From a virus (Duplodnaviria > Heunggongvirae > Uroviricota > Caudoviricetes), in IMG/VR virus record IMGVR_UViG_3300022758_000225, positions 1-22,421 of that record: 22,421 bases of DNA; one strand, written 5' to 3'. Made by a program: the position numbers and the translations under genes. Of this stretch, positions 1 through 14,690 are shown one piece after another. The notes under the pieces are model-generated. The model was not told the origin of the DNA. It was given only the letters and a program-made list of their open reading frames with translations, and searched no databases. Each line of letters opens with the position of its first letter. Positions within the stretch are counted from its first letter, which is position 1.

Positions 1-73
1 TGATTATTTGCCACCCATGCCCCCCAACGTTCAAGAACCATTTGAATATCACGCATCAACTGTCTCCACAAAA

Positions 74-1070: not shown

Positions 1071-1071
1071 C

Positions 1072-1881: not shown

Positions 1882-1900
1882 ACTTCGTTTCTCCTCTTGA

Positions 1901-2290
1901 TCAGGCGGCTGCACCCGCCGTTTTCTCGTACTTACTGATGGTGATCTCGACCTTCCCTTTCGGGATAACCGGTCCCCACTCCACCAGCATTCTTTTCACC
2001 TGTCTGTCGTCTTCCCACACACCCGCGTGGGTCAACGCGTCAAACAGCGCCTTGTTATAGTTGTCCAGATCGCGGATCCGGTTATCCGGAGGAAACAACA
2101 CGATCTCCACTGAAGCAGGTGCCGACGTTGGTTTTGGCAGACGACGTAACTGCTCAACTATTGCTGCGCACGCCGCGCTCTGAAATTTTCGCCCCGCCGC
2201 GCTTATCAGGCTCTTACCAGCAAATGCCCCTTTGTTGGGGTGTCGCCAGTACGTGTTCACGCTGGGCGGGAAAGGCAGGATCAGCTTCAT
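1901..2290 (-). CDS. rusA: Holliday-junction resolvase RusA
   Basis: 129 aa with PPSVNTYWRH, DLDNYNKALFDAL and GVWEDDRQV motifs matching E. coli RusA. Start overlaps the upstream stop as ATGA. Confidence 0.85.
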   Translation of the reverse strand: MKLILPFPPSVNTYWRHPNKGAFAGKSLISAAGRKFQSAACAAIVEQLRRLPKPTSAPASVEIVLFPPDNRIRDLDNYNKALFDALTHAGVWEDDRQVKRMLVEWGPVIPKGKVEITISKYEKTAGAAA

Positions 2291-2613
2291 ACTTTCAGGC
2301 CTCTCTCATGTAACCAGTGGGTTGCACGCAGCCTGGCGTTTTCCTCACCGGCAAGCAGTGAGCGGATAATCCCGACCGCCTCGCTGTCGTCGTCCTTCAC
2401 CGCGGTATGAAGAGTGATACCCCGGGCCACGCCACGCTTTATCGTGATGACGCCTTTTTTCTCCAGTGCGCGAAGATGTTCCACCGCTGCATTCACTGAA
2501 CGGTATCCCAGCATGGTTGCCACCTCCTGATTGGTTGGCGGGAAGCCACGTTCTTTCTGGTAAGAAATCAGCATATCCAGCACCTGCTGCTGGCATTGAG
2601 TTAACGTCGTCAT
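2287..2613 (-). CDS. LexA N-terminal DNA-binding-domain protein lacking the S24 peptidase domain
   Basis: 108 aa; QQQVLDML...GFPPTNQEVATMLGYRSVNAAVEHLRALEKKGVI aligns by eye with the LexA winged-HTH domain. No Ala-Gly cleavage site or Ser/Lys dyad. ATGA overlaps at both ends. Confidence 0.7.
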   Translation of the reverse strand: MTTLTQCQQQVLDMLISYQKERGFPPTNQEVATMLGYRSVNAAVEHLRALEKKGVITIKRGVARGITLHTAVKDDDSEAVGIIRSLLAGEENARLRATHWLHERGLKV

Positions 2614-3263
2614 GCCGCCATCTCCCTGACCAGTTTTTCCGCCTGCTGGCGAACCTGCGCCAGAAACGCCTCACCACATGCCTCAAGTTCATCGCGCCCG
2701 ATGTAGCTGATTGCCGGTCCCTTCCAGGTCTTGTCGAAAACAGCAATAGCACCAGCGAAGAAAGCGCCTGTCGGCACCTGCTTCTCGTCCTTCGGTATAA
2801 ACCAGGCAGGCAGTTCAAAACCAATACGCCCGCGAATAAAAGCAATATGATCTGCATCTTCCGGCCACCACACTTCGCTGGTGGCCGCTTTGATCAGGAA
2901 AACATAGCGCCCGCCCTTATCACGCATGGCACTGGCATGTTTCATGATGTAACGCATGCCGGTGATGTATTGCCCCTCATGCTGACTGGCGCGGCTGTAT
3001 GGGGGATTACCAAAGGCAGCACCTTTAAGCTCCGCAAGACGTTCTGACCAGTCATGCGCCAGCGCGTTATCTTCCGCCGTGTAATACGCGGCACATTTGG
3101 CGTTATCACCGTCAGTAAACAGATCCAGAACAAACGGGCCAAACAGAGTGTTAATTCCCCAGAAAATGTTGTCCGGCGTGCGCCACTGATCGCCCACTTC
3201 CTTCAGTTCATGGGCTGGTTTGTTCCGCAGTTCCACCAGTGCCTGACAATATTTATTACTCAT
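2610..3263 (-). CDS. phage N6-adenine DNA methyltransferase (Dam-like orphan methylase)
   Basis: Contains the NPPY motif (FGNPPYS) and a DLFTDGDN region typical of phage N6-adenine methyltransferases. Preferred start is ATG at 3263, overlapping the upstream stop as TAATG; the track gives a GTG at 3296. Confidence 0.8.
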   Translation of the reverse strand: MSNKYCQALVELRNKPAHELKEVGDQWRTPDNIFWGINTLFGPFVLDLFTDGDNAKCAAYYTAEDNALAHDWSERLAELKGAAFGNPPYSRASQHEGQYITGMRYIMKHASAMRDKGGRYVFLIKAATSEVWWPEDADHIAFIRGRIGFELPAWFIPKDEKQVPTGAFFAGAIAVFDKTWKGPAISYIGRDELEACGEAFLAQVRQQAEKLVREMAA

Positions 3264-3745
3264 TAAGCCCCCACGTAATTCCCTGACAGATACCACTCTT
3301 CACCCGATGCTGCGCGCTTGCTGCTTTTCTGTAAGCACTGCTCACGACGCGCCAGAAAATTGTTTCGTTCTGGCTGGGAGTGGCTTTCACGGAATGCCGC
3401 CATCCACACCGTTGCAGCACGACGGTATAAGCCCCTGGACTCCAGTTCTTCAGCCTGGCGAATCACCCGGGGATCGTTAGTGCCGACATAGAAATTGCGC
3501 ACAGGTCTGGTTTCACGAACTGGTTGTGGTTCCGGCTCCTGCGCTCTCTCAGTCAGGCGCGGGAAATGTCTGCGTGTATCTCCTTCACAACGGTGAGCCA
3601 CACGCCCACTCTGACGTAACTTGCTTGCTGACTGCAGAACGCGCTGTCGTGAGTAACCTGCAAAAGCATCCGCAATGTCTCCGAAAGTACACCCCGGATG
3701 GGCTTCAATGAATTTCTGAACTTCATTCAAAAGACTCATGATCAC
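3263..3745 (-). CDS. putative DNA-binding regulator with PerC-like C-terminal region
   Basis: 160-aa ORF in an operon of overlapping genes. The segment RVIRQAEELESRGLYRRAATVWMAAF resembles PerC-family proteins, from recall only. Confidence 0.4.
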   Translation of the reverse strand: MIMSLLNEVQKFIEAHPGCTFGDIADAFAGYSRQRVLQSASKLRQSGRVAHRCEGDTRRHFPRLTERAQEPEPQPVRETRPVRNFYVGTNDPRVIRQAEELESRGLYRRAATVWMAAFRESHSQPERNNFLARREQCLQKSSKRAASGEEWYLSGNYVGA

Positions 3746-4332
3746 CCCCTGAATCCTACCGGGATCTGGCTGTAGTCCACGTTGTCGTAACTGGCTTTGA
3801 AGTACGGGTCTTCACGTTTTTCTGTGTGCGTGCTGACGGACGGCGATAAGCGCAGGGAAAGCTCATCCCATTTTTCCCTCAACTTCGACGGGCTGAGCAC
3901 GTTACGGTACCAGAACGGATCGCGGCTGACGCGGCTGTACATCTCGCAGATTTGTTTGTGAGTACGACCATCCTGCACACACATCAGGCGAATTTCGTTT
4001 GCCCATGCTGTCCAGTTCGGTTCTTTGGGACGAACCACCTCGCCGTCACATTCGGCGGCCTGCTCGTACAGGGCGATGATTTTTTTCCAGAGCCACTGTG
4101 CGCAGGTCAAATCATCCTGCGTTCCCCACTGGCGCTTTTTAGGGCTGAATACAACCGCATCAGGATGGCGAGTTAAAAACTCCTGTTCAGCCGTTTGCGT
4201 GTCCGGTTGCGAAGCGTCCGGACGAGAAGAGGTTTTATTCTCTGTAGTAATCTCTGTTGTATTCTCTGTAAGATCATTGGGCCATTTTGACCCGATGACA
4301 GCGTGTCGTTTTGAACCAATGGATCGTGTCAT
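3742..4332 (-). CDS. replication protein, C-terminal part (O-like linker plus C-terminal domain)
   Basis: 196 aa. N-terminus is low-complexity (TENTTEITTENKTSS) and is encoded by the iteron region. ATG overlaps the stop of the replisome-organizer ORF as ATGA. Function inferred from position and iteron linkage. Confidence 0.5.
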   Translation of the reverse strand: MTRSIGSKRHAVIGSKWPNDLTENTTEITTENKTSSRPDASQPDTQTAEQEFLTRHPDAVVFSPKKRQWGTQDDLTCAQWLWKKIIALYEQAAECDGEVVRPKEPNWTAWANEIRLMCVQDGRTHKQICEMYSRVSRDPFWYRNVLSPSKLREKWDELSLRLSPSVSTHTEKREDPYFKASYDNVDYSQIPVGFRG

Positions 4333-4408
4333 TTGCGCCCATCCATCAGGTCACTTTGACCCGATGGAGAAGTGCATTTTGACCTGATGGATTCGTTCAC
4401 TTTGACCT
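4285..4408. repeat. origin-of-replication iterons (about 5 direct copies of TTTGAC(C/A)YGATGG plus one inverted copy)
   Basis: Direct copies at 4285-4298, 4309-4322, 4355-4367, 4377-4390 and a partial copy at 4400-4408. An inverted copy (ccatcaggtca) lies at 4343-4353. Spacing is 22-24 bp. They sit inside the replication gene, as ori-lambda does inside O. Confidence 0.6.
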
Positions 4409-4733
4409 CTTCTAAAAGCTCACTTTCATAGTTGATCGTGTAGAAGTTGGTCATGTCACGCTTCGATTTATTGAGTTGCTCGCGACGCAAAACCCCAAGT
4501 GATTTCAGGCTTGCAAATGTGCGTTTCAGAGTGGACTCTGACCAGAACGGAAACTGCTCCAGCCACTGTTCTGTCGTGTTATAAACCCAGCGAATTCCGC
4601 CATGCTCAGTGCCTGAATTCGTTTCATTCAGCCAGTAATGAAGCTGCTGCAACACAATTGCCTCATTCAGACCAATACGGCATGCAAGATCACGATTTAT
4701 CACAATGGGCTGGGATGTCATTAACAGGCTCAT
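4329..4733 (-). CDS. phage replisome organizer, N-terminal iteron-binding domain (lambda O-like)
   Basis: 134 aa; the N-terminus [39 protein letters not shown] resembles replisome-organizer N-terminal domains. Its 3' end is encoded by the iterons. Confidence 0.6.
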   Translation of the reverse strand: MSLLMTSQPIVINRDLACRIGLNEAIVLQQLHYWLNETNSGTEHGGIRWVYNTTEQWLEQFPFWSESTLKRTFASLKSLGVLRREQLNKSKRDMTNFYTINYESELLEEVKVNESIRSKCTSPSGQSDLMDGRK

Positions 4734-4902
4734 GACCGACCTCTATTTCCCTGAATTTACGACGAAACTGTTCGAGCGGACTGAAGCATTCATGTTCATA
4801 GCCTTCACGGAGGTAGATAACCCGTTGTGTTTCCGGCTCCCAACGAATGACTCTGACGGGCACTCCGTAGTGATCTTTGAACCAGCGGTTAACTTGTCGC
4901 AA
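4690..4902 (-). CDS. small phage protein (DUF4222-like)
   Basis: 70-aa ORF with TTG start at 4902 preceded by a strong SD (AAGGAGA at 4906-4913 on the minus strand). Motif [12 protein letters not shown]. Its 3' end overlaps the replication gene start by 44 nt. Confidence 0.45.
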
Positions 4903-5081
4903 AGGACTGTCTCCTTCTGCCGGTTGAAATCACCCACAGCCCACTCTGCAAAGCTGTGGGTTACAATTTCCCTGTCACCTGGTACATTCACTGCATAGCA
5001 ATACTCCACCTTCGCTTTTCCACCCGGTACAGGAAGCGCAATCAGTTGCGAGCGACGGTAGTGTGTTGTTAAACTGTTCAT
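4743..5081 (-). CDS. hypothetical protein (gene model uncertain)
   Basis: ATG at 5081 with GGAG about 10 nt upstream. The 3' two-thirds overlaps the DUF4222-like gene in another frame and looks low-complexity, so the true product is probably shorter. Confidence 0.2.
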
Positions 5082-5147
5082 GCGTTAGTTTCTCCACAAC
5101 CAGAAGCAATCGACGCCACGACGCCCGGAGCTGCACACTCGCGGGCG

Positions 5148-5636
5148 TCACTCTTTTCTGGAGCGCAAAAGATTTTGTAGACCAGTGCTGCATGCTCCTG
5201 GAGCTTCGCAAATTGACAGATACAACTCATCATTAATTGCTGTCTGCTCGTGTGGCTCCACTACCCCATCTTCGATTGCCGAACGAATCTGCTTTGAGTA
5301 ACTCCCGATCTGTTCGATGACTTCCAGCAGGCGCTGGTTTATATCGGCGTTCTCTACTTCCTCAATTTCAGGAAGCGATACAAACACCCCACCAGCAGAC
5401 TGTGCGACAGCATCCGCAATGTAGTGAGTGCCAGCCGCGCGCTGTAAAATCATTGCCCATCCCAGCGGGAAAATCTGATCGCCATCTGCACGAAGGCGGT
5501 TGAATAAAGCGTTCTCTGTTACATCCAGCCACTCAGCAGCTTCAGCGTAACCCCCCGGCAACGCCGCGATAGTTTTTCTGACAGCTTTCACGTACCACTC
5601 AGGCTGTTTTTCCACTTTCCAGTGATGATTACCCAC
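5148..5636 (-). CDS. CII-like regulatory protein (CP76 / YdaT-like family)
   Basis: 162 aa with GTG start preceded by AGGAGG. Lies immediately downstream of the cro-like gene, opposite the repressor. Family assignment is from recall only. Confidence 0.5.
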   Translation of the reverse strand: MGNHHWKVEKQPEWYVKAVRKTIAALPGGYAEAAEWLDVTENALFNRLRADGDQIFPLGWAMILQRAAGTHYIADAVAQSAGGVFVSLPEIEEVENADINQRLLEVIEQIGSYSKQIRSAIEDGVVEPHEQTAINDELYLSICEAPGACSTGLQNLLRSRKE

Positions 5637-5732
5637 GGCTTACCTCCTGTTCCTGTGGTTTAAAACCCATTCTGGTTTTGGCTAGATTGAAAACGTGCCG
5701 GATAAAGAATCTGCATTTCGCTGATTTCACCC

Positions 5733-5921
5733 TTAAAAAAATTGGCCAGACGTTCTGCAAGATCGATAGATGGAATTTGTTCCAGTCTTTTCAATACGAC
5801 TCAGCGTCGCTGGATTGACCTGAACGCCAGCAGCAACATGCTGCAAAGTAAATCCGTGCGCCTTACGCACATTTCCGTAATGGTGATTGCATATTACCTC
5901 CACATATTGCGTGATGAGCAT
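5733..5921 (-). CDS. Cro-like HTH (XRE-family) regulator
   Basis: HTH signature LQHVAAGVQVNPATLSRIEKTG. Divergent from the repressor gene. Internal ATG at 5921 chosen because the track's TTG at 6017 would overlap the cI start; no obvious SD, so possibly leaderless. Confidence 0.45.
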   Translation of the reverse strand: MLITQYVEVICNHHYGNVRKAHGFTLQHVAAGVQVNPATLSRIEKTGTNSIYRSCRTSGQFF

Positions 5922-5970
5922 ATTATTTTCACGCAAATATTTTGCGCAAGTTGATTTGCTTAACGCGCAA
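5907..5970. promoter_or_regulatory. OR-like operator cluster and divergent promoters between the cro-like and cI-like genes
   Basis: Three 15-bp palindromic sites centred about 24 bp apart: TTGCgtgatgaGCAt (5907-5921), cGCAAatattTTGCg (5932-5946), TTGCttaacgcGCAA (5956-5970). TTGATT at 5951-5956 and TAATAA at 5982-5987 are candidate promoter hexamers. Confidence 0.5.
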
Positions 5971-5990
5971 TAAAGAAATGTAATAAACGC

Positions 5991-6684
5991 ATGAACATAG
6001 GAAACCGAGTCAGACAACTTCGCCAGGCGAAGAACATGAAAATCGCCGATCTCGCTGAAGCAATAGGAGTGGATGCGGCGAATATCTCACGCCTGGAAAC
6101 AGGTAAGCAGAAACAATTCACTGAACAAGCCCTGAGTAATATTGCCAGGAGCTTAGGTGTTGATATTGCTGATCTCTTTACCTCAGACGTCAAAAGTAAT
6201 ACTGTATGTAAAAACAGTATTAGTGAGGATGTTGCGCAGGTGAAGGATGTATTCCGTATTGAAATGCTGGATGTCAGTGCCAGTGCGGGAAATGGCCTTA
6301 TCCAGGGCGGTGATGTCATTGATGTGATTCATGCCATTGAATACAGAACTGATAATGCTGTATCGATGTTTTGGCGGACGGCCAGCCAATCACATTAAAG
6401 TTATCAACGTTCGTGGGGACAGTATGTGTCCAACCATTGAGCCAGGAGATCTCATCTTCGTTGATGTCAGTATCAATCAGTTTGATGGAGATGGTATCTA
6501 TGTATTTGGTTTTGATGATAAAATTTATGTCAAGCGACTGCAAATGATACCTGACAAACTACTGGTGATTTCTGATAACCAGATTTACCGTGAATGGGGA
6601 ATTACCAGCGAAAATGAACACCGGTTTATGGTCTTTGGAAAGGTCTTAATCAGCCAGTCACAAACCCTTAAGCGACACAATTAA
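5991..6684 (+). pseudogene. cI-like prophage repressor (XRE HTH plus S24 LexA-like peptidase domain) interrupted by a frameshift
   Basis: ORF 5991..6398 carries the HTH (IADLAEAIGVDAANISRLETGKQ) and an Ala-Gly site (SASAGNG). ORF 6331..6684 in the +1 frame carries the S24 motifs GDSMCPTIEPGD and KRL. Removing one T from the T4 run at 6369-6372 joins them as ...NAVSMFGGRPANHIKV.... Confidence 0.7.
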
Positions 6685-6704
6685 CCCTTACCTCCTCATC
6701 AATT

Positions 6705-6726
6705 AGCCACCCAAAGGTGGCTTTTC
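6705..6726 (+). terminator. intrinsic terminator downstream of the cI-like gene
   Basis: Stem agccacc / ggtggct with loop caaa, followed by TTTT, about 20 nt after the cI stop at 6682-6684. Confidence 0.5.
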
Positions 6727-6739
6727 ATTACCCTTTAAA

Positions 6740-6792
6740 TTGCATATCTCGCAACAAAAACACTTGCATAATGCGCAACTTCATTTTATCTT
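6740..6792 (+). promoter_or_regulatory. OL-like operators with candidate PL promoter
   Basis: Two TTGC-N7-GCAA sites (6740-6754 and 6764-6778), 24 bp centre to centre, the same motif as the OR sites. TTGCAT at 6764-6769, a 17-bp spacer and TATCTT at 6787-6792 form a candidate rightward promoter. Confidence 0.4.
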
Positions 6793-7222
6793 TCTTTCCA
6801 GACAAACAAACAAGGTACTAACAAAATTTGGTTGTAACACGGCGTATGGCACATGCGTCGTTAGCGGTCTGGGGACGTTAAAGGGGACAATCCACTCCTT
6901 GCTCGGGCAAACAAACCAGGTAGCCGGAATGTGCAAGTCAATGATGATGCTGATAAGACGCCTAACCAGCGTGGCGGTTCGGTTTGACACCTGGGAAGAG
7001 ACCAGGGTGCAACGATGAGGGCATTTATGGAACCGCGACAAAGTGTGGTGCCGTAACTGGCTAAGTGCTCTCAGCGTTGTGGTGAATGCGCAGGCTGATG
7101 CGCGAAAGACATTGCAGCTATTGCGGAAAAGAGCTGTTCGGCGGGGCAATTAAACGCCCGTGAGAGTCTGAAATAACCGCAAGCCGGAGATCAGCACCGG
7201 TCACCACAACAGCCACTGCTTT

Positions 7223-7270
7223 AGCGGTACCAGTTTGTACACTTGCTTCCGGCTGGTACCGCTCTTTTTT
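7223..7270 (+). terminator. intrinsic terminator in the early-left leader (tL-like)
   Basis: Perfect 11-bp stem agcggtaccag (7223-7233) / ctggtaccgct (7253-7263) with a 19-nt loop, followed by T6 at 7265-7270. Confidence 0.5.
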
Positions 7271-7407
7271 ACAAAACAGAGAAGAGCATCACCGGACGAC
7301 GGGCTCATAACCCAATCCATCCGGGCGGCTGCCACCGCAGGTGTTCTTCTCTGTTTTGTGGAGAAACCAACCGACCTTGCAGGGTCGATATGATGAGGAG
7401 CAGCAAA

Positions 7408-7770
7408 ATGGCTAGCGTACGCAGTACTGATGTGCAGGCATTTATCGGGGAGCTGGACGGCGGCGTATTTGAAACCAAAATCGGCGCTGTTCTCAGTGAA
7501 GTCGCTTCCGGTGTGATGAACACGAAAAACAAAGGTAAGGTCTCGCTCAACCTGGAAATCGAACCATTTGATGAGAACCGTGTGAAAATCAAACACAAAC
7601 TCTCATATGTTCGCCCGACTAACCGCGGGAAAATTTCCGAAGAAGACACCACCGAAACGCCGATGTATGTCAATCGCGGTGGTCGCCTGACTATTCTGCA
7701 GGAAGACCAGGGACAATTACTGACTCTTGCCGGTGAACCTGACGGAAAACTCCGCGCAGCAGGTCATTAA
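7408..7770 (+). CDS. hypothetical early-left protein (first gene after the leader; yfdP-like by position and size)
   Basis: ATG at 7408 preceded by GAGGAG at 7395-7400; 120 aa. No similarity to lambda N. Track ORF 7243..7770 is an upstream extension without an RBS. Confidence 0.5.
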   Translation: MASVRSTDVQAFIGELDGGVFETKIGAVLSEVASGVMNTKNKGKVSLNLEIEPFDENRVKIKHKLSYVRPTNRGKISEEDTTETPMYVNRGGRLTILQEDQGQLLTLAGEPDGKLRAAGH

Positions 7771-7835
7771 TATCGTTCTTAATTAACTGATTATTTATCT
7801 CATCACTGAATATCTTAATATAGTGAGGACTTATT

Positions 7836-8659
7836 ATGTCTCAGAACTTAGACGCAACCGCAATTAATCAAATCCATGCCCTTATTTCTGCTCAGGGTGT
7901 TAATGAAATTATCAGTAAGATTGGTGCCGATGCTGTGGCATTGCCTGAGAATTTCCGCATTCATGATCTGGAAAAATTTAATTTAAATCGCTTCCGTTTC
8001 CGTGGTGCGCTTTCCACTGCCAGCATCGATGACTTTACCCGTTATTCTAAAGATCTTGCAGATGAAGGCACCCGCTGCTTTATCGATGCCGATAATATGC
8101 GAGCCATCAGTGTGCTTAACCTGGGTACTATTGATGAACCAGGTCACGCAGATAACACCGCCACTCTCAACTGAAAAAGACAGCACCGTTCTCTGCCCTG
8201 CTGTCTGTTAATGGCGAGCGTAACTCCCAGAAGTCACTGGCAGAATGGATTGAAGACTGGGCCGACTATCTTGTGGGCTTTGATGCTAATGGTGACGCTA
8301 TTAAGGCAACAAAAGCGGCTGCGGCAGTCCGTAAAATCACGATTGAAGCAAACCAGACCGCTGATTTTGAAGATAATGACTTCAGCGGCAAACGCTCTTT
8401 GATGGAGTCTGTCGAAGCGAAAACCAAAGACATTATGCCAGTAGCATTTGAGTTTAAATGCGTTCCGTTTGAAGGCCTGAAAGAACGTCCGTTTAAATTA
8501 CGCCTCAGCATTATCACTGGTGATCGTCCTGTACTGGTTCTGCGCATTATTCAGCTGGAAGCGGTGCAGGAAGAAATGGCTAACGAATTTCGTGATCTGC
8601 TTGTTGAGAAATTCAAAGACAGCAAAGTAGAAACCTTTATTGGTACTTTCACCGCCTGA
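7836..8659 (+). pseudogene. DUF2303-like (yfdQ-like) gene split by a frameshift
   Basis: N-part 7836..8174 (frame 0) stops at 8172-8174. The C-part frame is open from 8156 and continues to 8659 (track ORF begins at GTG 8273). The two frames overlap in 8156-8172; joined length is about 274 aa. Confidence 0.5.
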
Positions 8660-8786
8660 TTTCATTACTGCAAATGCCCCTGCGGGGGCATTTATGGAAA
8701 CGTAATTGACTCAATAATCGCCAGATGGTGAGGGCTTCCTTTTACCAGAATTCAGCGCGGTGCAGCGCATATACGTGGAGAACAAA

Positions 8787-9323
8787 ATGTCATTTATTAA
8801 AACTTTTTCCGGGAAGCATTTTTATTATGACAGGATAAATAAAGACGACATCGTTATTAACGATATCGCGGTTTCTCTTTCAAATATCTGTCGCTTTGCA
8901 GGACATCTTTCACATTTCTACAGCGTCGCCCAACATGCGGTGCTTTGCAGCCAACTGGTACCGCAGGAATTTGCTTTTGAAGCGTTAATGCATGATGCAA
9001 CAGAAGCGTATTGCCAGGACATCCCGGCGCCACTGAAACGCCTTCTTCCTGACTATAAACGGATGGAAGAAAAAATAGACGCCGTAATCCGTGAGAAATA
9101 CGGGTTACCACCAGTTATGAGTACACCCGTGAAATATGCCGATCTCATCATGCTGGCAACCGAACGTCGCGATCTCGGGCTTGATGATGGCTCTTTCTGG
9201 CCTGTACTGGAAGGCATCCCGGCAACAGAGATGTTCAACGTGATTCCACTGGCTCCGAGCCATGCCTACGGGATGTTTATGGAACGTTTTAACGAGTTAT
9301 CGGAGTTACGCAAATGCGCATGA
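8787..9323 (+). CDS. HD-domain phosphohydrolase (yfdR-like)
   Basis: His-Asp motif in EALMHDATEAYCQDIP plus HLSHFYSVAQH. ATG at 8787 preceded by GGAG gives 178 aa; the track ORF starts at 8760. Confidence 0.65.
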   Translation: MSFIKTFSGKHFYYDRINKDDIVINDIAVSLSNICRFAGHLSHFYSVAQHAVLCSQLVPQEFAFEALMHDATEAYCQDIPAPLKRLLPDYKRMEEKIDAVIREKYGLPPVMSTPVKYADLIMLATERRDLGLDDGSFWPVLEGIPATEMFNVIPLAPSHAYGMFMERFNELSELRKCA

Positions 9324-9730
9324 ATGTTTTCGAAATGGAAGGGTTTCTTCGCGGGAAATGTGTACCACGAGATCTGAAAGTGAATGAAACAAATGCTGAG
9401 TATCTGGTGCGTAAATTTGCTGAAGCGGAGGCCAAGTGCGCGGCGCTGGCGGCGGAGAATGAGCTGGCTCGTAAAGCTGTTCAGGCATTCTGTGAGGTTG
9501 TTGGCGACAACACTGAGATTATCTCCGTGTTGGTTGGGCGAGATGGCGTTCTGGTTATTTTGGAGGCCATGAAGGCAACAGGAAATATGTCAGCCACCGA
9601 CGCTTTCCTGGCTGAAGTACGTGCGCAGGGTGTTGAATTGTTGCGCGAGCATCCTGCTATCCAGATTTGCTCTTTAACGCACGTATGCGACGAGTTCGCC
9701 GCCCAGCTTCGTAAAGGAGGCAACCAGTGA
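9314..9730 (+). CDS. hypothetical protein
   Basis: 138-aa ORF. ATG at 9314 preceded by GGAG; overlaps the HD gene stop by 10 nt. Confidence 0.45.
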   Translation: MRMNVFEMEGFLRGKCVPRDLKVNETNAEYLVRKFAEAEAKCAALAAENELARKAVQAFCEVVGDNTEIISVLVGRDGVLVILEAMKATGNMSATDAFLAEVRAQGVELLREHPAIQICSLTHVCDEFAAQLRKGGNQ

Positions 9731-10026
9731 CTGTATGTCTTATTGATAAACGTCGACGTGGGCAACAAATACCATCTGTTGAAATGCCGAATCACACATG
9801 GTTTTGCGTACTTGATATCGATGGTATGGATACGTTGATCGACACTCGTCATTACTGCGATACCGCAACAGCTACTCCGGCGAAAGCAAAGAAAATGGCT
9901 GCTCTGATAGAAAACTGGACTCCACCTGATGGTTGGTGCAATGGGAATGATCGGGATTGGCATGAAAAAATGAAGAGCTATATCTGCGATTTCTTACGTA
10001 AATGCAACGGATTCAGGGTGATGTGA
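9727..10026 (+). CDS. hypothetical Cys-rich small protein
   Basis: 99 aa. GTG start overlapping the upstream stop as GTGA, preceded by a strong AGGAGG at 9713-9718. Confidence 0.45.
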   Translation: MTVCLIDKRRRGQQIPSVEMPNHTWFCVLDIDGMDTLIDTRHYCDTATATPAKAKKMAALIENWTPPDGWCNGNDRDWHEKMKSYICDFLRKCNGFRVM

Positions 10027-10027
10027 C

Positions 10028-10564
10028 ATGAGCAATATTGACTATCAGGCACTGCGTGAGGCGGCAGAACGTGCAATTCCGGCAATGGAACGCCTGTTAA
10101 TGTTGCCAGCTGATGATGATTTGTTAAGTGAACAGGAACTTAAAGATTACGGTGTGGATATTGATGCGCTCAACGCCTTCAAATTTCTGAACGGACCAGA
10201 AACCGTGCTGGCACTGCTGGATGAACGGGAAAGAAACCAGCAATACATCAAACGCCGTGACCAGGAGAACGAGGATATTGCGCTTACGGTTGGGAAGCTG
10301 CTCGTTGAGCTTGAAGCAGCAAAATCAAAACTCAACGAGCAGCGCGAGTATTACGAGGGAGTTATCTCTGATGGGTGCAAGCGTATTGCTGAACTGGAAG
10401 CGCGGGAAGTTCAATTACCGACTCGCTACGACCTTCGATATGGACACCCGATAAATGCAGATGAGCGACATGTCATGATACCTAAAGAAAATGGCAGTTG
10501 GCTTTACCTGATTGACCTGGAACACGCATTACGCGTCGCTGACATTCGCATCAAAGGAGAGTGA
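10028..10564 (+). CDS. Ead/Ea22-like early protein
   Basis: 178 aa. N-terminus MSNIDYQALREAAERA and a coiled-coil-like middle section resemble Ea22-like proteins of lambdoid early-left regions, from recall only. Confidence 0.45.
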   Translation: MSNIDYQALREAAERAIPAMERLLMLPADDDLLSEQELKDYGVDIDALNAFKFLNGPETVLALLDERERNQQYIKRRDQENEDIALTVGKLLVELEAAKSKLNEQREYYEGVISDGCKRIAELEAREVQLPTRYDLRYGHPINADERHVMIPKENGSWLYLIDLEHALRVADIRIKGE

Positions 10565-10565
10565 T

Positions 10566-10829
10566 ATGGCAACTTTGACAAAAAAAGAACAAGCATGGTT
10601 GAGCGAATTACAGGACGTTCTTGATCGCTGCCCATCACCGAAAAAAATTGGTTTTTACACCATTGGCGATAAAAGCATTTACCTGTATGACCTGCGCCGC
10701 ATGGATGAAATCATGGAGGCTCTTGATAATCGTTCGTCAATGGATTGGTGTGTTGCTGTTCATGATATGAATGCCGGATTTGATGAAAAGATTTTATTCC
10801 CCTCATCAGTTGAAAGTACAGCAGGATAA
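10566..10829 (+). CDS. hypothetical protein
   Basis: ATG at 10566 two nt after the upstream stop, preceded by AAAGGAGAG; 87 aa. The track ORF extends upstream to 10512. Confidence 0.45.
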   Translation: MATLTKKEQAWLSELQDVLDRCPSPKKIGFYTIGDKSIYLYDLRRMDEIMEALDNRSSMDWCVAVHDMNAGFDEKILFPSSVESTAG

Positions 10830-10839
10830 GGACTAACAC

Positions 10840-11412
10840 ATGACCACTATTACCAAAGAGCGACTGCTGACAATCAGGCAGTGGCGCGAAACATACGGAC
10901 CTGGTAGCAACGTTGTACTGCCAGCAGAAGAAGCGGAAGAACTGGCACGAATTGCTCTGGCATCGCTGGAAGCAGAACCTGTAAGCCAAACTTACAACTT
11001 GCCACAAACGCACTTTGAACAGGTTGCTGACCTTTACGAAATGCAATTTGATGACGGACGCACTTGTGCCTTTCATACTGATGCGCAAAAGGCTGCGCAA
11101 TGGCTTCGGGCATGCGACGGAAACAGGGTTCAGGAATACGTGAAACTGGAGCGACTGCAGAACGCGCTATCGGGCAACTCTCCGGTAATTCCGGATAGTT
11201 GGATAAGCTGTAGTGAGCGAATGCCGGAAAAGAATCAGAACGTGCTTATTTCGGTGAATTTCGATAGCTCTCTGGTTGAACCGCTAATATGCTCCGCACG
11301 CTATACCGGAAGCACCTTTCGGCGCGGAGATGCAACGATTAAGCCGGGTAATGGTATTGAGCAGGCAACCCACTGGATGAAATTACCGGAACCACCGCAG
11401 GAGGTGAAGTGA
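10840..11412 (+). CDS. DUF551-domain protein
   Basis: C-terminal WISCSERMP...THWMKLPEPP matches the DUF551 signature common in lambdoid prophages. Confidence 0.6.
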   Translation: MTTITKERLLTIRQWRETYGPGSNVVLPAEEAEELARIALASLEAEPVSQTYNLPQTHFEQVADLYEMQFDDGRTCAFHTDAQKAAQWLRACDGNRVQEYVKLERLQNALSGNSPVIPDSWISCSERMPEKNQNVLISVNFDSSLVEPLICSARYTGSTFRRGDATIKPGNGIEQATHWMKLPEPPQEVK

Positions 11413-11984
11413 TGAACAACTTAATGATCGACCTTGAGACGATGGGGAAAAATAAGGATGCACCGATCGTTTCCATTGGCGCGGTGTTCTTCACTCCAGA
11501 AACCGGAGACATCGGACAAGAATTCTATACGGTTGTTAGCCTGGAAAGTGCTATGGGGCAAGGAGCTACACCTGACGGCGATACCATCCTGTGGTGGTTG
11601 AAACAAAGCCCTGAAGCACGAGCTGCAATCTGTATTGATGATACTTTGTCGATCAGCGATGCTCTCTCAGAACTAAATCATTTCATTAACCGGCACGCAG
11701 CCAATACGAAATATTTAAAAGTCTGGGGTAACGGGGCCACCTTCGACAACGTAATTTTACGTGGAGCTTATGAGCGAGCAGGACAAATCTGCCCGTGGGC
11801 ATACTGGAATGACCACGATGTACGCACGATCGTTACGCTTGGGCGTTCCATCGGATTCGACCCCAAAATGGACATGCCTTTCGATGGCGAACGGCACAAC
11901 GCCCTGGCTGATGCTCGTCATCAGGCAAAATATGTTTCCGCTATCTGGCAGAAATTAATTCCTGCCACCAGCACAGAATTATGA
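11412..11984 (+). CDS. DnaQ-like 3'-5' exonuclease (DEDDh family)
   Basis: MIDLETMG (Exo I motif) and ERHNALADARHQ (Exo III H-x4-D motif). AGGAGG at 11399-11404. Confidence 0.65.
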   Translation: MNNLMIDLETMGKNKDAPIVSIGAVFFTPETGDIGQEFYTVVSLESAMGQGATPDGDTILWWLKQSPEARAAICIDDTLSISDALSELNHFINRHAANTKYLKVWGNGATFDNVILRGAYERAGQICPWAYWNDHDVRTIVTLGRSIGFDPKMDMPFDGERHNALADARHQAKYVSAIWQKLIPATSTEL

Positions 11985-12020
11985 TTTTCCCGGGTGCAGC
12001 CGGTTTTGATGGAGAAAATT

Positions 12021-12302
12021 ATGAACACCTTGTTTTTACTGATGGCTGAATTCAATACCCCTAACATTGAACTCTCAGCAGTTAGCCAAAAGTACTTTGG
12101 CATGAGTCCAGCCACGGCAGAAGCAAAAGCAAACGCTTGTAAGTTGCCCGTTCCAACATATCGCATCGGCACATCACAAAAAGCAAAACGTTGCATCAAT
12201 ATTCAGGATCTTGCGGAATACATAGACAAAAGACGAGAAGAAGGACGTATCGAGTGGGAACAGGTCAGAACAGGCAAACAGAAGGGCAAAGAACATCACT
12301 AA
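12021..12302 (+). CDS. PrtN-family DNA-binding protein (pyocin-activator / excisionase-like)
   Basis: MNTLFLLMAEFN...IQDLAEYIDKRR closely resembles the N-terminus of P. aeruginosa PrtN. ATG at 12021 preceded by GGAG. Confidence 0.6.
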   Translation: MNTLFLLMAEFNTPNIELSAVSQKYFGMSPATAEAKANACKLPVPTYRIGTSQKAKRCINIQDLAEYIDKRREEGRIEWEQVRTGKQKGKEHH

Positions 12303-12304
12303 AG

Positions 12305-12331
12305 AAAAAACCCGCCTAAAGGCGGGTTTTC
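12305..12331. terminator. bidirectional intrinsic terminator
   Basis: aaaaaaCCCGCCtaaaGGCGGGtttt: GC-rich stem flanked by an A-run and a T-run, between convergent genes ending at 12302 and 12350. Confidence 0.6.
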
Positions 12332-12349
12332 AAAAAGCACCAGCTATGA

Positions 12350-12523
12350 TCATGCTGCTTTGCGACGACGAAGCTTACCCTGCTGCTCTTTACCAGAGAC
12401 AGTAGCGTGAGTGAACGCATTAGGAGCAGCCTTCATCAGAACTTCAACAGCAGCACCCATACCTGCGAATGCTTTCATTGTGTCGAACTTAACCTGTGGC
12501 TTGGTTGCTTTTTGATCTTTCAT
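12350..12523 (-). CDS. small lysine-rich hypothetical protein (57 aa; not in the supplied ORF track)
   Basis: Hand translation of the minus strand gives MKDQKATKPQVKFDTMKAFAGMGAAVEVLMKAAPNAFTHATVSGKEQQGKLRRRKAA. ATG at 12523 preceded by GGGAG at a 7-nt spacing. Confidence 0.4.
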   Translation of the reverse strand: MKDQKATKPQVKFDTMKAFAGMGAAVEVLMKAAPNAFTHATVSGKEQQGKLRRRKAA

Positions 12524-12719
12524 AGAAAACTCCCGAGACAGTAAAGGCGTCTCTAACCCTCTCTTTAAAGCTAGCTTGTTTAGCTAACTTATGCCAATCG
12601 ATCATGTCGATTGGTGACATCGTTTCTTAGTAGTTTAAGCACAAAACGACTGCCATAGATGTACCTTTAAGGTAATCTGGACGGGTATCCTACAATTTGT
12701 AGACCCTTCTCGTCTATAC

Positions 12720-13256
12720 CTACTGAGCAAATTTAAGAAAGATATCCTGCAGCTCATCAATGACTGCAGACATCACATAACCGCACTGTTCCATGCGGAA
12801 ACCAAAAGACTCGTAATACTGCACCAGTTCTGGTACTGGCTCTACAATGTGGACAACTTTACATTCAACAGCTTTACAAAATATAAAAGCACTCATAAGA
12901 GTGAGTAAAACCATGCGCCCTTTCAATGGGTGAGATTCATCTTCTCTAGAAAACCTTTCGATCATATGGATACGAAAGATGTTTTCTTCAACCCCATAAA
13001 CACAAATTGCTGCTCCTGATGGTATTCCCTGAACCCGACCTTGCTGAACAAGTTTTATGCAGAACTCATACTTTTCTCTGGAGTTGCCATAGGTGCTTAA
13101 CGCATAGTCCCATTCAAGCTCACCATAGCCACCACACAGAATCTTGTAATCATCATCACTGAGCGGACCAACAGCAAGAGGTAAGCCGACATGATCAATA
13201 ATCAACTGGATATTGTTACGTACAGATTGACCTATCTCGTCTAGGGTAAGCATCAT
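12720..13256 (-). CDS. GNAT-like acetyltransferase-fold protein (moron candidate)
   Basis: 178 aa. KGRMVLLTLMS and ELVQYYESFGF resemble GNAT motifs A and B. Opposite strand to its neighbours and visibly AT-rich. Fold call is tentative. Confidence 0.45.
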   Translation of the reverse strand: MMLTLDEIGQSVRNNIQLIIDHVGLPLAVGPLSDDDYKILCGGYGELEWDYALSTYGNSREKYEFCIKLVQQGRVQGIPSGAAICVYGVEENIFRIHMIERFSREDESHPLKGRMVLLTLMSAFIFCKAVECKVVHIVEPVPELVQYYESFGFRMEQCGYVMSAVIDELQDIFLKFAQ

Positions 13257-13536
13257 AGACTCTCAAGCGGAACACTAAAAATCTCATTATATCTCATTCT
13301 GATGCCCCGCATGGATTACACCTTGAAATGAAAACACCGGGTTCCCAATAGGCTCCCACAAAGTGTATAACTACTTGTTTTTCAAAAACGGTACATCCTA
13401 TCGAGCATAGGAGCAATGCTAAACCGAGAACTCCAGTAAGCGCCAGTTTTTTCAGGCATCACGCTGGTTTGATTAGTTTTCTGTATTTCAGGATTATCGT
13501 GCATTTTTGAACATTTCAGGCTATTTTTCTCGCGTT

Positions 13537-13572
13537 AGGTTCCCGCACAGGTTCCCACGTTTTATGGGAACC
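13537..13572. promoter_or_regulatory. repeated GGTTCCC motifs upstream of the integrase gene (candidate arm-type or regulator binding sites)
   Basis: AGGTTCCC at 13537-13544 and 13549-13556; inverted copy GGGAACC at 13566-13572, forming TTCCCA-N7-TGGGAA. Related GGTTCCCA and GGCTCCCA copies at 13340-13347 and 13351-13358. Confidence 0.35.
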
Positions 13573-13592
13573 CGAAATAACGAGGTCGTGTA

Positions 13593-14690
13593 ATGGCGTA
13601 CTATAACATAGAGAAACGACTAAAATCCGATGGCACACCACGCTATCGCTGTAATGTGATTATCAAAGAAAAAGGTGTTATCACTTACAGGGAAAGCAAA
13701 ACATTCCCTAAACATGCTCATGCCAAAACATGGGGCGCACAGAAAGTGATGGAATTAGATCTATATGGCATTCCATCATCAAATGCTGTTGATGGACTTA
13801 CAGTCCGTGACTTACTACACAAATATTTAAATGACCCAAATGCCGGAGGTAAAGCAGGCCGTACTAAAAGATATGTGCTGGAACTGCTTATGGATAGTGA
13901 CATATCCGCGATCAAACTATCTGAACTGACAGAAAATGACGTAATTGAACATTGCAGGCTAAGAAACAACGCTGGTGCAGGCCCAGCAACAGTCAGCCAC
14001 GATGTTAGTTATCTTGGCAGTGTTCTGGATGCGGCAAAACCTGTATACGGAATCAATTACACATCAAACCCGGCGAAAAGCGCTCGTCCATATCTACTTA
14101 AACTCGGTTTGATTGGTAAATCAAACCGTCGTAATCGTAGACCAGCATCTGATGAACTGGACATGCTCATTGAAGGCCTTCAACAACGATCTACTCATAA
14201 ATGCTCAAAAATTCCGTTCGTTGATATCCTCAAATTTTCTGTGTGGTCCTGTATGCGAATCGGAGAAGTATGCCGGTTACGATGGGAAGATCTCGACCAA
14301 GAACAAAAATCTATACTAGTAAGAGATAGGAAAGATCCACGTAAAAAGGAAGGTAACCATATGAAAGTTGCCTTGCTTGGGGAAGCCTGGGATATCGTCC
14401 AGCGCCAACCCAAAAAATCAGAATTCATTTTTCCATATAACAGCACTTCTGTTACCGCAGGATTTCAGAGGGTAAGAAGCAAATTAGGTATTAAAGATCT
14501 GCGATACCATGATTTGCGTAGAGAAGGGGCAAGTCGCTTATTTGAGGCTGGTTTTAGTATTGAGGAAGTCGCTCAAGTTACAGGGCATCGTTCATTAAAC
14601 GTGCTATGGCAGGTATATACCGAACTGTATCCGAAATCTTTACATAATCGTTTTGAAGAACTCCAAAAGAGCAGAAACAAGACCTCTTGA
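13593..14690 (+). CDS. int: tyrosine site-specific integrase
   Basis: 365 aa with C-terminal catalytic signature YHDLRREGASRLFEAGFSIEEVAQVTGHRSLNVLWQVYTEL (HxxR and Tyr nucleophile). RBS GAGG. Confidence 0.9.
   Translation: MAYYNIEKRLKSDGTPRYRCNVIIKEKGVITYRESKTFPKHAHAKTWGAQKVMELDLYGIPSSNAVDGLTVRDLLHKYLNDPNAGGKAGRTKRYVLELLMDSDISAIKLSELTENDVIEHCRLRNNAGAGPATVSHDVSYLGSVLDAAKPVYGINYTSNPAKSARPYLLKLGLIGKSNRRNRRPASDELDMLIEGLQQRSTHKCSKIPFVDILKFSVWSCMRIGEVCRLRWEDLDQEQKSILVRDRKDPRKKEGNHMKVALLGEAWDIVQRQPKKSEFIFPYNSTSVTAGFQRVRSKLGIKDLRYHDLRREGASRLFEAGFSIEEVAQVTGHRSLNVLWQVYTELYPKSLHNRFEELQKSRNKTS

What the first reader, a model, noticed from the sequence alone, without database searches (positions are those of the whole stretch)
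7408..10026. Early-left block of small genes mirrors the E. coli CPS-53 yfdP-T cluster
Where lambda carries N and its recombination and host-takeover genes, this phage has five consecutive genes whose order and sizes match what I recall of yfdP-yfdQ-yfdR-yfdS-yfdT (here about 120, ~274 split, 178, 138 and 99 aa). Only the HD-domain protein has an inferable activity (metal-dependent phosphohydrolase). An HD hydrolase in a tightly coupled operon directly after the immunity region is the kind of position occupied by superinfection-exclusion, anti-defence or nucleotide-signal-degrading functions.
Basis: inference. Interest (0 to 1): 0.55.

Follow-up and report, generated by a model that had tools for sequence, protein, structure and literature searches.

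The report
Known yfdP-yfdQ-yfdR phage early module
This block is the already described yfdP-yfdQ-yfdR early gene module of lambda-like phages, whose HD enzyme is reported to bind the host replication initiator DnaA, so it is ordinary; the unannotated structured RNA just upstream of it is the more interesting thing here.

Summary
Genes 1-3 (7408-9323) are true orthologues of E. coli K-12 CPS-53 YfdP, YfdQ and YfdR, at 97.5%, 98.5% and 98.3% amino-acid identity over full length. Gene 4 shares only its first ~50 residues with YfdS. Gene 5, a DUF7739 protein, is unrelated to YfdT and matches it only in size. The "split" yfdQ comes from one missing A at 8169. It is one of seven single-base homopolymer differences unique to this window, which also break cro and cI, so it is most likely sequencing error.

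YfdR is an HD phosphohydrolase, but its function is not merely inferable. K-12 YfdR is a published weak 5'-deoxynucleotidase that binds DnaA domain I. Multicopy yfdQ + yfdR + (yfdS or yfdT) blocks oriC initiation. [quoted passage not shown] I found no support for exclusion, anti-defence or signal degradation. A YfdQ homologue has a deposited structure (PDB 9o7m, 36 chains).

Noticed in passing: the 690-nt leader carries a ~135-nt structured RNA (7076-7210). It shows strong covariation, is widespread in phages, and is absent from Rfam.

The parts
6705..6722 (+). Terminator-like hairpin directly after the cI stop codon (6684)
   Evidence: 7-bp stem AGCCACC/GGTGGCT followed by TTTTCATT.
7066..7074 (+). 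boxA-like sequence TGCTCTCAG, directly upstream of the structured RNA
   Evidence: Sequence. In relatives the same position reads TGCTCTTTC in 12 elements. A boxA-like 9-mer is present in 21 of 127 elements, against 0 in a control window. Its function is inferred only.
7076..7210 (+). Conserved structured RNA in the operon leader. Closing helix P1 is 7076-7084 paired with 7202-7210. Hairpin PA is 7088-7103. The variable arm is 7104-7182. Hairpin PB is 7183-7201. The PA loop GCUGA is complementary to the PB loop UCAGC.
   Evidence: 94.4% of cells are paired, against 81.6% in shuffles (0 of 500 shuffles as high). All 9 P1 pairs show double changes. Model R1 scores 94 bits at 7074-7212. No Rfam match.
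7223..7270 (+). Intrinsic-terminator-like hairpin (AGCGGTACCAG ... CTGGTACCGCT) followed by C and T6, between the RNA element and yfdP
   Evidence: Sequence and MFE fold. The T run is one base longer than in all 83 related loci held.
7408..7770 (+). yfdP, 120 aa, function unknown. The model shows a long helix, a three-stranded sheet, and a conserved but disordered C-terminal tail.
   Evidence: 97.5% identical to K-12 YfdP. PHROG 204. Homologues carry PF27127. AF2 model has pLDDT 69. No fold match.
7836..8659 (+). yfdQ (DUF2303), reading frame broken by a missing A at 8169. The intact form is 274 aa.
   Evidence: Pfam PF10065 at E = 1.4e-91 on the intact allele. Homologue solved as PDB 9o7m 'YfdQ Protein', 36 chains.
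8672..8693 (+). GC-rich hairpin AAATGCCCC-TGCG-GGGGCATTT in the yfdQ-yfdR spacer, with no T tract
   Evidence: Sequence. Not called as a terminator. Role unknown.
8787..9323 (+). yfdR, 178 aa, HD-domain 5'-deoxynucleotidase and DnaA-binding protein
   Evidence: 98.3% identical to K-12 YfdR. HD residues aligned to 2gz4. PHROG 318. RefSeq name. Function from PMC4776307.
9314..9730 (+). Gene 4, 138 aa. A chimera of the YfdS N-terminal module (~50 aa) and an unrelated C-terminal part shared with some Ead/Ea22-type proteins.
   Evidence: 86% identity over residues 1-51 only. (PHROGs 614, 492, 583, and 368 at residues 34-138). No Pfam domain. The window-type C-terminus occurs in 2 of 80 related loci.
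9727..10026 (+). Gene 5, 99 aa, DUF7739 protein. Not a YfdT homologue.
   Evidence: PF24881 at E = 3.9e-21. PHROG 1239. No similarity to YfdT.
10028..12302 (+). Rest of the early-left operon: Ead/Ea22-like (10028-10564), an 87-aa ORF (10566-10829), a DUF551 protein whose N-terminus weakly resembles YfdT (10840-11412), an Rv2179c-like 3'-5' exonuclease (11409-11984), and a PrtN-type excisionase (11994-12302)
   Evidence: the DUF551 protein vs YfdT residues 1-42 at E = 0.044, and vs the YfdS C-terminus at E = 0.015.

Best explanation
The block is the conserved yfdP-yfdQ-yfdR module of the early-left (PL) operon of lambdoid phages. The same module sits in the K-12 cryptic prophage CPS-53, in Shigella phage SfV and in phage mEp460. 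Here it is followed by two mosaic accessory genes that are not the K-12 yfdS and yfdT.

Shown: the identity of the three genes, their invariant order, and the intact HD catalytic residues.

Taken from published work on the 98%-identical K-12 proteins: YfdR is a weak 5'-deoxynucleotidase. It binds DnaA domain I at Phe46 and competes with DiaA and DnaB. Together with YfdQ and a third small protein, it blocks initiation at oriC.

Inferred: in a live phage the module is transcribed early from PL and acts as a host-takeover function. It would shut off new rounds of host chromosome replication and free replication resources for the phage.

The split yfdQ in this window is most likely a homopolymer sequencing error rather than biology.
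For: - Identity: full-length BLASTP at 97.5%, 98.5% and 98.3% to K-12 YfdP, YfdQ and YfdR. RefSeq annotation of near-identical prophages. mEp460 gp35-gp33.
- Order: yfdP > yfdQ > yfdR in 80 of 80 related IMG/VR loci.
- Families: DUF2303 at E = 1.4e-91 and YfbR-like/HD hits. PHROG 318 at E = 8e-110. HD residues aligned with Atu1052.
- Function: PMC4776307. PMC12315714 places the cluster in early-left operons of lambdoid phages.
- Position: the block lies downstream of cI and its terminator, upstream of Ea22, xis and int, on the same strand.
- Frameshift as artefact: seven +/-1 homopolymer differences at 5662-8169 are each unique to the window, against 10-79 related loci. They also break cro and cI.
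Against: - The replication-inhibition phenotype was seen only on multicopy plasmids. Deleting yfdQRST had no effect, and the authors themselves allow that it may be an overexpression artefact.
- The K-12 effect needed YfdS or YfdT. This window has only the first ~50 residues of YfdS and no YfdT.
- Nothing has been tested in a propagating phage.
- YfdP was dispensable for the phenotype yet is invariably linked, so part of the module's role is unexplained.
- If the frameshift is real, yfdQ is dead here.
Confidence: 0.55

Rival explanations
1. The module acts on nucleotide pools. YfdR's real role would be its 5'-deoxynucleotidase activity, for example removing dNMPs or modified dNMPs, or rebalancing precursors during early phage development. 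DnaA binding would be incidental.
For: The HD catalytic residues are conserved. The YfbR-like family and PHROG 'deoxyribonucleoside 5' monophosphate phosphatase' match. The published in vitro activity is cited.
Against: [quoted passage not shown] This does not explain the invariant linkage with YfdP and YfdQ. DnaA binding is specific to Phe46.
Confidence: 0.2
2. The HD protein and its neighbours would form a superinfection-exclusion or anti-defence unit, for example one that hydrolyses cyclic-nucleotide immune signals.
For: The block occupies the early-left position where accessory genes accumulate. HD domains can hydrolyse many phosphoesters (general knowledge). Nothing here excludes the idea.
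Against: - There are no matches to defence-related profiles.
- The closest families are dNMP phosphatases, not cyclic-nucleotide phosphodiesterases.
- No supporting paper turned up in the yfdR, yfdQ or DUF2303 searches.
- A different activity is already documented.
Confidence: 0.08
3. YfdP and YfdQ are an unrecognised recombination or DNA-transaction pair that stands in for the missing Red/Erf module in this phage.
For: - The phage has no recognisable recombination module.
- The pair sits where such modules sit.
- K-12 yfdQ mutants are mildly MMS- and H2O2-sensitive.
- A YfdQ homologue forms a large assembly in PDB 9o7m (36 chains).
Against: - Zheng et al. note that the cluster also occurs in phages with a complete Rec module, and they judge a recombination role unlikely.
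- The YfdQ and YfdP models have no fold similarity to annealing proteins, SSBs or nucleases.
- The window is Chi-rich (8 sites against 0.74 expected), which fits reliance on host RecBCD.
Confidence: 0.07
4. In this particular genome the block is decaying. The yfdQ frameshift is real, and the region is part of a defective prophage.
For: yfdQ, cI and cro are all out of frame in the window.
Against: - Seven homopolymer indels with almost no substitutions across 2.5 kb is the signature of base-calling error, not of decay.
- The remaining ~5 kb up to 13400 is identical to the relatives.
- The window keeps a free-phage gene order, with int next to the tail-fibre genes.
Confidence: 0.1

Closest known systems
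E. coli K-12 cryptic prophage CPS-53 (KpLE1) yfdP-yfdQ-yfdR-yfdS-yfdT (b2359-b2363)
   Same: yfdP, yfdQ and yfdR are 97.5-98.5% identical at protein level, in the same order and on the same strand. Gene 4 has the same first ~50 residues and the same 10-nt overlap with yfdR.
   Different: Gene 4 lacks the DUF551 domain of YfdS. Gene 5 (DUF7739) is unrelated to YfdT. CPS-53 has lost the immunity region and the leader RNA element. Here yfdQ is frameshifted.
Phage mEp460 gp35-gp32 and Shigella phage SfV orf32-29, the same module in plaque-forming lambdoid phages
   Same: The module has the same position between cI and the Ea22/xis/int genes. The whole window is 96.6% identical to mEp460 over 69% of its length. 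mEp460 carries the identical leader RNA element.
   Different: mEp460 has the YfdS-type 120-aa fourth gene, followed by different small genes.
The 'no Rec module, high Chi' class of lambdoid phages (phage LLS, ST64B, phiNP; Zheng et al. 2025, PMC12315714)
   Same: The early-left operon has the yfdP / yfdQ / yfbR-like triad and no exo, bet, gam or erf. The window has 8 Chi sites in 22.4 kb.
   Different: LLS proteins are only 76-90% identical to their ST64B counterparts, and LLS has a different replication module. Membership of this window's phage in that class is inferred from a partial genome only.
E. coli YfbR (5'-deoxynucleotidase) and Agrobacterium Atu1052 (PDB 2gz4), HD-domain phosphohydrolases
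   Same: They share the HD metal-binding motif and overall domain. Atu1052 aligns over residues 19-175 at E = 4.5e-14.
   Different: YfdR scores below the Pfam and NCBIfam cut-offs for the YfbR family: 24.4 vs 25.9 bits, and 19.9 vs 122 bits. It has much lower nucleotide affinity and an added DnaA-binding activity.
Lambda P protein and B. subtilis SirA, proteins that bind DnaA and block host initiation
   Same: The proposed outcome is the same: inhibition of DnaA-dependent initiation. SirA and YfdR both use the domain I Phe46/Phe49 surface.
   Different: There is no sequence relationship. Lambda P binds domain III. The YfdR effect needs YfdQ and a third protein.
For the leader RNA: lambda nutL (boxA + boxB) and HK022 putL
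   Same: The position is the same, in the untranslated leader just downstream of the early-left promoter region and ahead of a terminator. A boxA-like sequence sits directly 5' of a structured RNA.
   Different: There is no N gene and no boxB-type hairpin. The covariance model finds nothing at HK022 putL or putR. The element also occurs next to tRNA genes, downstream of Q, and in P1 and T1-like phages. Only one copy is present in the window.

Membership tests
CPS-53 yfdP-T cluster | A YfdP orthologue as the first gene | tested here: met
   97.5% identity over 120/120 residues. RefSeq names the identical gene 'protein YfdP'.
CPS-53 yfdP-T cluster | A YfdQ orthologue (DUF2303, 274 aa) as the second gene | tested here: met
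   98.5% identity over 274/274 residues after restoring one A at 8169. PF10065 at E = 1.4e-91 on the intact allele. As written in the window, the frame is broken.
CPS-53 yfdP-T cluster | A YfdR orthologue (HD domain, 178 aa) as the third gene | tested here: met
   98.3% identity over 178/178 residues.
CPS-53 yfdP-T cluster | A YfdS orthologue (N-terminal module plus DUF551 domain) as the fourth gene | tested here: not met
   Only residues 1-51 align. Gene 4 has no DUF551 hit. DUF551 is carried by a separate gene at 10840-11412.
CPS-53 yfdP-T cluster | A YfdT orthologue as the fifth gene | tested here: not met
   No similarity (best E = 2.7). Gene 5 is DUF7739.
HD-domain metal-dependent phosphohydrolases | The H...HD...D metal-binding residues | tested here: met
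   H50, H69-D70 and D119 align with the corresponding residues of Atu1052 (PDB 2gz4). The roles of these residues come from general knowledge of the family.
YfbR-type 5'-deoxynucleotidase (Pfam PF12917, NCBIfam NF003009) | A score above the curated family cut-off | tested here: not met
   24.4 bits against a cut-off of 25.9, and 19.9 against 122. YfdR is a relative of the YfbR equivalog, not a member. The RefSeq name rests on the K-12 protein's assayed activity.
YfdQRS/T inhibitor of oriC initiation (Noguchi & Katayama 2016) | YfdR binds DnaA, and the gene set suppresses over-initiation | not testable with these tools
   Expected from 98% identity to the tested proteins. It needs pull-down and flow-cytometry assays. 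The required third component (YfdS or YfdT) is not conserved here.
Known anti-phage defence or exclusion systems | A match to a PADLOC defence-protein profile | tested here: not met
   No hits for genes 1-5 at E <= 0.01. PADLOC does not cover anti-defence proteins, so that part of the idea is untested.
Lambdoid recombination (Rec) module | The presence of an exonuclease, annealing protein, SSB or RecBCD inhibitor of a known family in the early-left operon | tested here: not met
   No such Pfam or PHROG hits among the ten early-left ORFs. The only nuclease is a DnaQ-like Rv2179c-type 3'-5' exonuclease next to xis, a type that Zheng et al. do not count as Rec module.
HK022 put RNA (for the leader element) | Sequence and structure similarity to putL or putR | tested here: not met
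   Model R1 finds no match near HK022 PL or PR. The best hit is 15 bits, in the nin region.
Any Rfam 15 family (for the leader element) | A covariance-model match | tested here: not met
   No match at gathering score over the whole window. No match at E <= 1 in 6650-7450. No match overlapping the element in 11 other loci.

The most novel reading that the evidence does not exclude
The yfdPQR block may be the payload of an N-independent, RNA-controlled early operon.

The unannotated structured RNA at 7076-7210 has a boxA-like sequence, a covarying closing helix, and two invariant hairpins with complementary loops. It would act in cis on RNA polymerase or on Rho/Nus factors. Transcription from the early-left promoter could then pass the terminator at 7223-7270 and the long untranslated leader into yfdP-yfdQ-yfdR. 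The products of those genes, with YfdQ as a large homo-oligomer, would then shut down DnaA-dependent host initiation.

The same RNA would protect tRNA clusters and late operons in unrelated phages.
Probability: 0.12. Interest if true: 0.75.

Novelty: already known. Interest (0 to 1): 0.18.

Why it matters
For the finding as given, little is at stake. It re-identifies a named, partly characterised gene cluster that is present in most E. coli genomes.

Its remaining value is as a reminder of an open question. The natural role of a module that is invariant in order (P-Q-R) and very common in temperate coliphages has never been tested in a live phage. A deposited 36-chain YfdQ structure suggests someone is now working on it.

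The leader RNA matters more. It is a strongly covarying, highly conserved RNA shared by lambdoid, P1-like, T1-like and other phages. It is present in about 16% of complete E. coli genomes, is annotated nowhere, and is absent from Rfam. It is a concrete new object for phage RNA biology.

Tried and rejected
- **NCBIfam and PADLOC scans.** No family-level hits for genes 1, 2, 4 and 5.
- **A paper for PDB 9o7m.** None in the library.
- **An N-like ORF in the 6685-7407 leader.** Only implausible ORFs are present, a 92-aa TTG ORF and a 122-aa minus-strand TTG ORF of odd composition. RefSeq annotates nothing there.
- **The leader element as a tRNA or tmRNA.** ARAGORN found none.
- **The leader element as an Rfam family.** No matches.
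- **The leader element as HK022 put.** No match.
- **A classical riboswitch.** I considered this and set it aside. The P1 3' strand does not overlap the downstream terminator stem, and terminators are not consistently present downstream: 43 of 127 elements, against 33 of 127 in the reverse-complement control.
- **A literature search by sequence words of the element.** It found nothing.
- **A technical failure.** The first Python comparison failed because the K-12 locus was not exported to the sandbox. I redid it with typed-in translations.
Full report
**Context**

The window is part of a lambdoid phage genome drawn in the reverse of the usual lambda orientation.
- Q, the nin-type genes and the replication genes lie on the minus strand (1-5900).
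- A cI-like repressor lies on the plus strand (5991-6684).
- A plus-strand early-left operon runs to an excisionase (11994-12302) and an integrase (13593-14690).
- Tail-fibre, Lom and J genes follow on the minus strand.

The window is 96.6% identical to phage mEp460 over 69% of its length. Positions 1-13417 are 99.9% identical to prophages in several E. coli genomes.

**The observation**

I fetched K-12 CPS-53, translated yfdP-T and compared them by BLASTP.

| Window gene | K-12 protein | Result |
|---|---|---|
| Gene 1 | YfdP | 97.5% over 120/120 |
| Gene 2 (one base restored) | YfdQ | 98.5% over 274/274 |
| Gene 3 | YfdR | 98.3% over 178/178 |
| Gene 4 | YfdS | 86% over residues 1-51 only |
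| Gene 5 | YfdT | no similarity (E = 2.7) |

The K-12 C-terminal DUF551 domain is absent from gene 4. Its place is taken by a segment that PHROGs link to the C-terminal part of some Ead/Ea22-type proteins. Gene 5 is a DUF7739 protein.

The DUF551 domain, and a weak YfdT-like N-terminus, are found instead in a separate gene at 10840-11412. So the resemblance is genuine orthology for P, Q and R, domain-level mosaicism for gene 4, and a coincidence of size for gene 5.

In 80 IMG/VR loci with an E. coli-type YfdQ:
- The order yfdP > yfdQ > yfdR is invariant (80 of 80).
- What follows varies. A YfdS-type C-terminus occurs in about 51, a YfdT type in about 36, and the window's gene 4 C-terminus in only 2.

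**The split yfdQ**

Alignment with a near-identical prophage shows a single missing A in CTCAAACTG at 8169. Across 5068-13417 the window differs from that prophage in three ways:
- a cluster of substitutions and small indels at 5099-5302;
- scattered point differences at 6534 and 13403-13412;
- seven single-base homopolymer length changes at 5662, 5788, 5872, 5926, 6369, 7265 and 8169.

Together they break cro into three frames, cI into two and yfdQ into two. This pattern points to homopolymer base-calling error rather than biology. I treat yfdQ as intact in the real phage and flag the alternative.

**What is known about the block**

RefSeq already names these genes 'protein YfdP', 'YfdQ family protein' and 'yfdR: 5'-deoxynucleotidase'. 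The 2.9-kb block has matches in 3537 of 5426 complete E. coli genomes.

Noguchi and Katayama (PMC4776307) isolated yfdQRST as a multicopy suppressor of hda-185. They reported the following:
[quoted passage not shown] - Extracts containing YfdQRST inhibit oriC replication in vitro.
- YfdR is a structural homologue of YfbR with much lower nucleotide affinity.
- The module may have served an ancestral phage by suppressing host initiation.
- The effect could be an overexpression artefact, and a deletion has no phenotype.

Zheng et al. (PMC12315714) describe the triad as fairly common in early-left operons of lambdoid phages. It occurs in, but is not limited to, the class with no recombination module. 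They consider a recombination role unlikely, and they give no known function for YfdP and YfdQ.

The window fits that class. None of the ten early-left ORFs belongs to a known Rec family. The window has 8 Chi sites against 0.74 expected by chance.

**What I could add on the proteins**

YfdR keeps the HD residues H50, H69-D70 and D119, by alignment to Atu1052 (2gz4, E = 4.5e-14). It falls just under the Pfam YfbR-like cut-off and far under the NCBIfam equivalog cut-off, so it is a relative of YfbR rather than a member.

The YfdQ model (pLDDT 76) has no informative fold neighbour. A sequence search of the PDB finds entry 9o7m, 'YfdQ Protein', 274 residues, with 36 chains of one sequence (E = 4e-44 for a single sequence and 5e-57 for the profile). 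It is too recent for the structural libraries, and no paper is in the searchable library. It suggests a large homo-oligomer, and I cannot go further than that.

YfdP (pLDDT 69) is predicted as a long helix plus a three-stranded sheet. Its C-terminal tail is disordered yet among its most conserved stretches, which is what a partner-binding peptide would look like. It has no fold match. No gene in the block matches a defence profile.

**Mechanism and confidence**

The identity of the module is essentially certain. The best-supported mechanism is early, PL-driven expression of a DnaA-targeting host-takeover function centred on YfdR, with YfdQ as an obligatory partner. I put this at about one half, for three reasons:
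- The phenotype rests on multicopy expression.
- The third component is not conserved here.
- No propagating phage has been tested.

I list each with its refuting experiment.

**Upstream of the finding**

cI ends at 6684 and is followed by a terminator-like hairpin (6705-6722). A 690-nt stretch with no credible ORF then precedes yfdP, and RefSeq annotates nothing there. Parts of this leader recur in very different phages.

The segment at about 7064-7211 is found in 184 phage records. These include lambdoid phages, P1, T1-like Klebsiella and Salmonella siphophages, Ackermannviridae and N4-like phages. It is also in 854 of 5426 complete E. coli genomes, never annotated.

Its anatomy, from the alignments:
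- a nearly invariant 5' part (GAAUGCGCAGGCUGAUGCGC);
- a nearly invariant 3' part (AAGCCGGAGAUCAGCACCGGC);
- between them, a variable arm whose unaligned middle spans 16-135 nt across the distinct elements;
- all of it enclosed by a helix whose sequence differs from phage to phage but stays complementary.

Evidence for the structure:
- In 97 distinct elements from IMG/VR, the first seven closing pairs are formed in 91-95 cases, with 48 different 9-mers.
- On a 44-sequence alignment, 94.4% of cells pair, against 81.6% in shuffles and 29-45% in slid controls.
- All nine closing pairs, three of five PA pairs and two of five PB pairs show double changes.
- G-U pairs outnumber A-C mismatches 17 to 4, so the plus strand is the RNA.
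- The two hairpin loops carry invariant complementary pentamers (GCUGA and UCAGC). This suggests a kissing interaction, which covariation cannot test.

Context of the element:
- It is co-oriented with neighbouring genes.
- It lies downstream of a cI-type repressor in 12 of 95 contexts, and upstream of yfdP in 8.
- It lies between Q and the lysis genes in 5-6 contexts.
- It lies beside tRNA genes on the same strand in P1, in KP591P1 and in about 9 of 60 IMG/VR loci.
- A boxA-like TGCTCTTTC directly precedes it in a subset: 21 of 127, against 0 in a control window.

In the window it is followed by a terminator-like hairpin with a T run (7223-7270), and then by a long hairpin before yfdP.

It is not a tRNA or tmRNA. 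It matches no Rfam 15 family. It is not an HK022 put homologue. It occurs once in the window. I found no paper that describes it, but the library is incomplete, so I cannot claim that it is undescribed.

My leading guess is a cis-acting element that protects long untranslated or terminator-containing transcripts, through processive antitermination or Rho protection. A stable tRNA-like or decoy RNA is the main alternative. Neither has been shown.

**Verdict**

The finding itself is an accurate but incomplete re-identification of a known, named and partly characterised module. Its novelty is 'already known' and its interest is low.

Noticed in passing
window 7066-7210 (+), with a terminator-like hairpin at 7223-7270: A ~135-nt structured RNA sits in the leader between cI and yfdP. 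It has a covarying closing helix, two nearly invariant hairpins whose loops are complementary (GCUGA/UCAGC), a variable arm, and in some relatives a boxA-like sequence just upstream. It is present in 184 phage records of very different types and in 854 of 5426 complete E. coli genomes, never annotated. It has no Rfam match and is not an HK022 put homologue. It is often found at the start of early-left or late operons, or beside tRNA genes.
   Followed up: yes
window 5662, 5788, 5872, 5926, 6369, 7265, 8169: Seven single-base homopolymer length differences are unique to this window, when compared with 10-79 related loci each. They put cro (three frames), cI (two frames) and yfdQ (two frames) out of frame. 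This is most likely sequencing error, so any ORF-level reading of 5600-8200 should allow for it.
   Followed up: yes
window, whole (431, 561, 832, 1981, 2877, 5389, 11965, 14882): There are eight Chi sites (GCTGGTGG) in 22.4 kb, against 0.74 expected from shuffles. There is no recognisable recombination module in the early-left operon. This fits the 'no Rec module, high Chi' class of lambdoid phages described by Zheng et al. 2025. I did not analyse the orientation of the sites.
   Followed up: partly
PDB 9o7m (homologue of window 7836-8659): A deposited structure named 'YfdQ Protein' (274 aa) has 36 chains of one sequence and matches the DUF2303 profile at E = 5e-57. It is newer than the structural search libraries, and no paper is in the searchable library. 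It hints that YfdQ forms a large homo-oligomer.
   Followed up: partly
window 6826-7003 and 7195-7407: Other pieces of the same non-coding leader are separately conserved. 6826-7003 is ~79-82% identical to non-coding DNA in P1-like phages, phiV10 and TL-2011b. The ~200 nt before yfdP, which include a ~20-bp-stem hairpin at 7271-7359, are shared with SfIV and mEp460_4F5. The whole 623-nt leader folds with z = -3.85 (20 shuffles).
   Followed up: partly
window 10840-11412 and K-12 yfdS/yfdT: The DUF551 protein downstream of the block has an N-terminus weakly like YfdT (34% over 47 aligned residues, E = 0.044) and a C-terminus like the DUF551 part of YfdS (E = 0.015). This suggests that K-12 yfdS and yfdT are recombinant pieces of the same pool of modular Ea22/DUF551 genes.
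   Followed up: partly
window 13417-13593: Identity to the integrated E. coli prophages stops at 13417, where those genomes continue into zur. That is ~175 nt before the integrase gene, so the attachment site lies between the excisionase-side genes and int. In the prophage, int would end up at the far (tail-fibre) end.
   Followed up: no
window 8672-8693: A GC-rich 9-bp hairpin (AAATGCCCC/GGGGCATTT) without a T tract sits in the 127-nt spacer between yfdQ and yfdR. It may be a processing or stability element.
   Followed up: no
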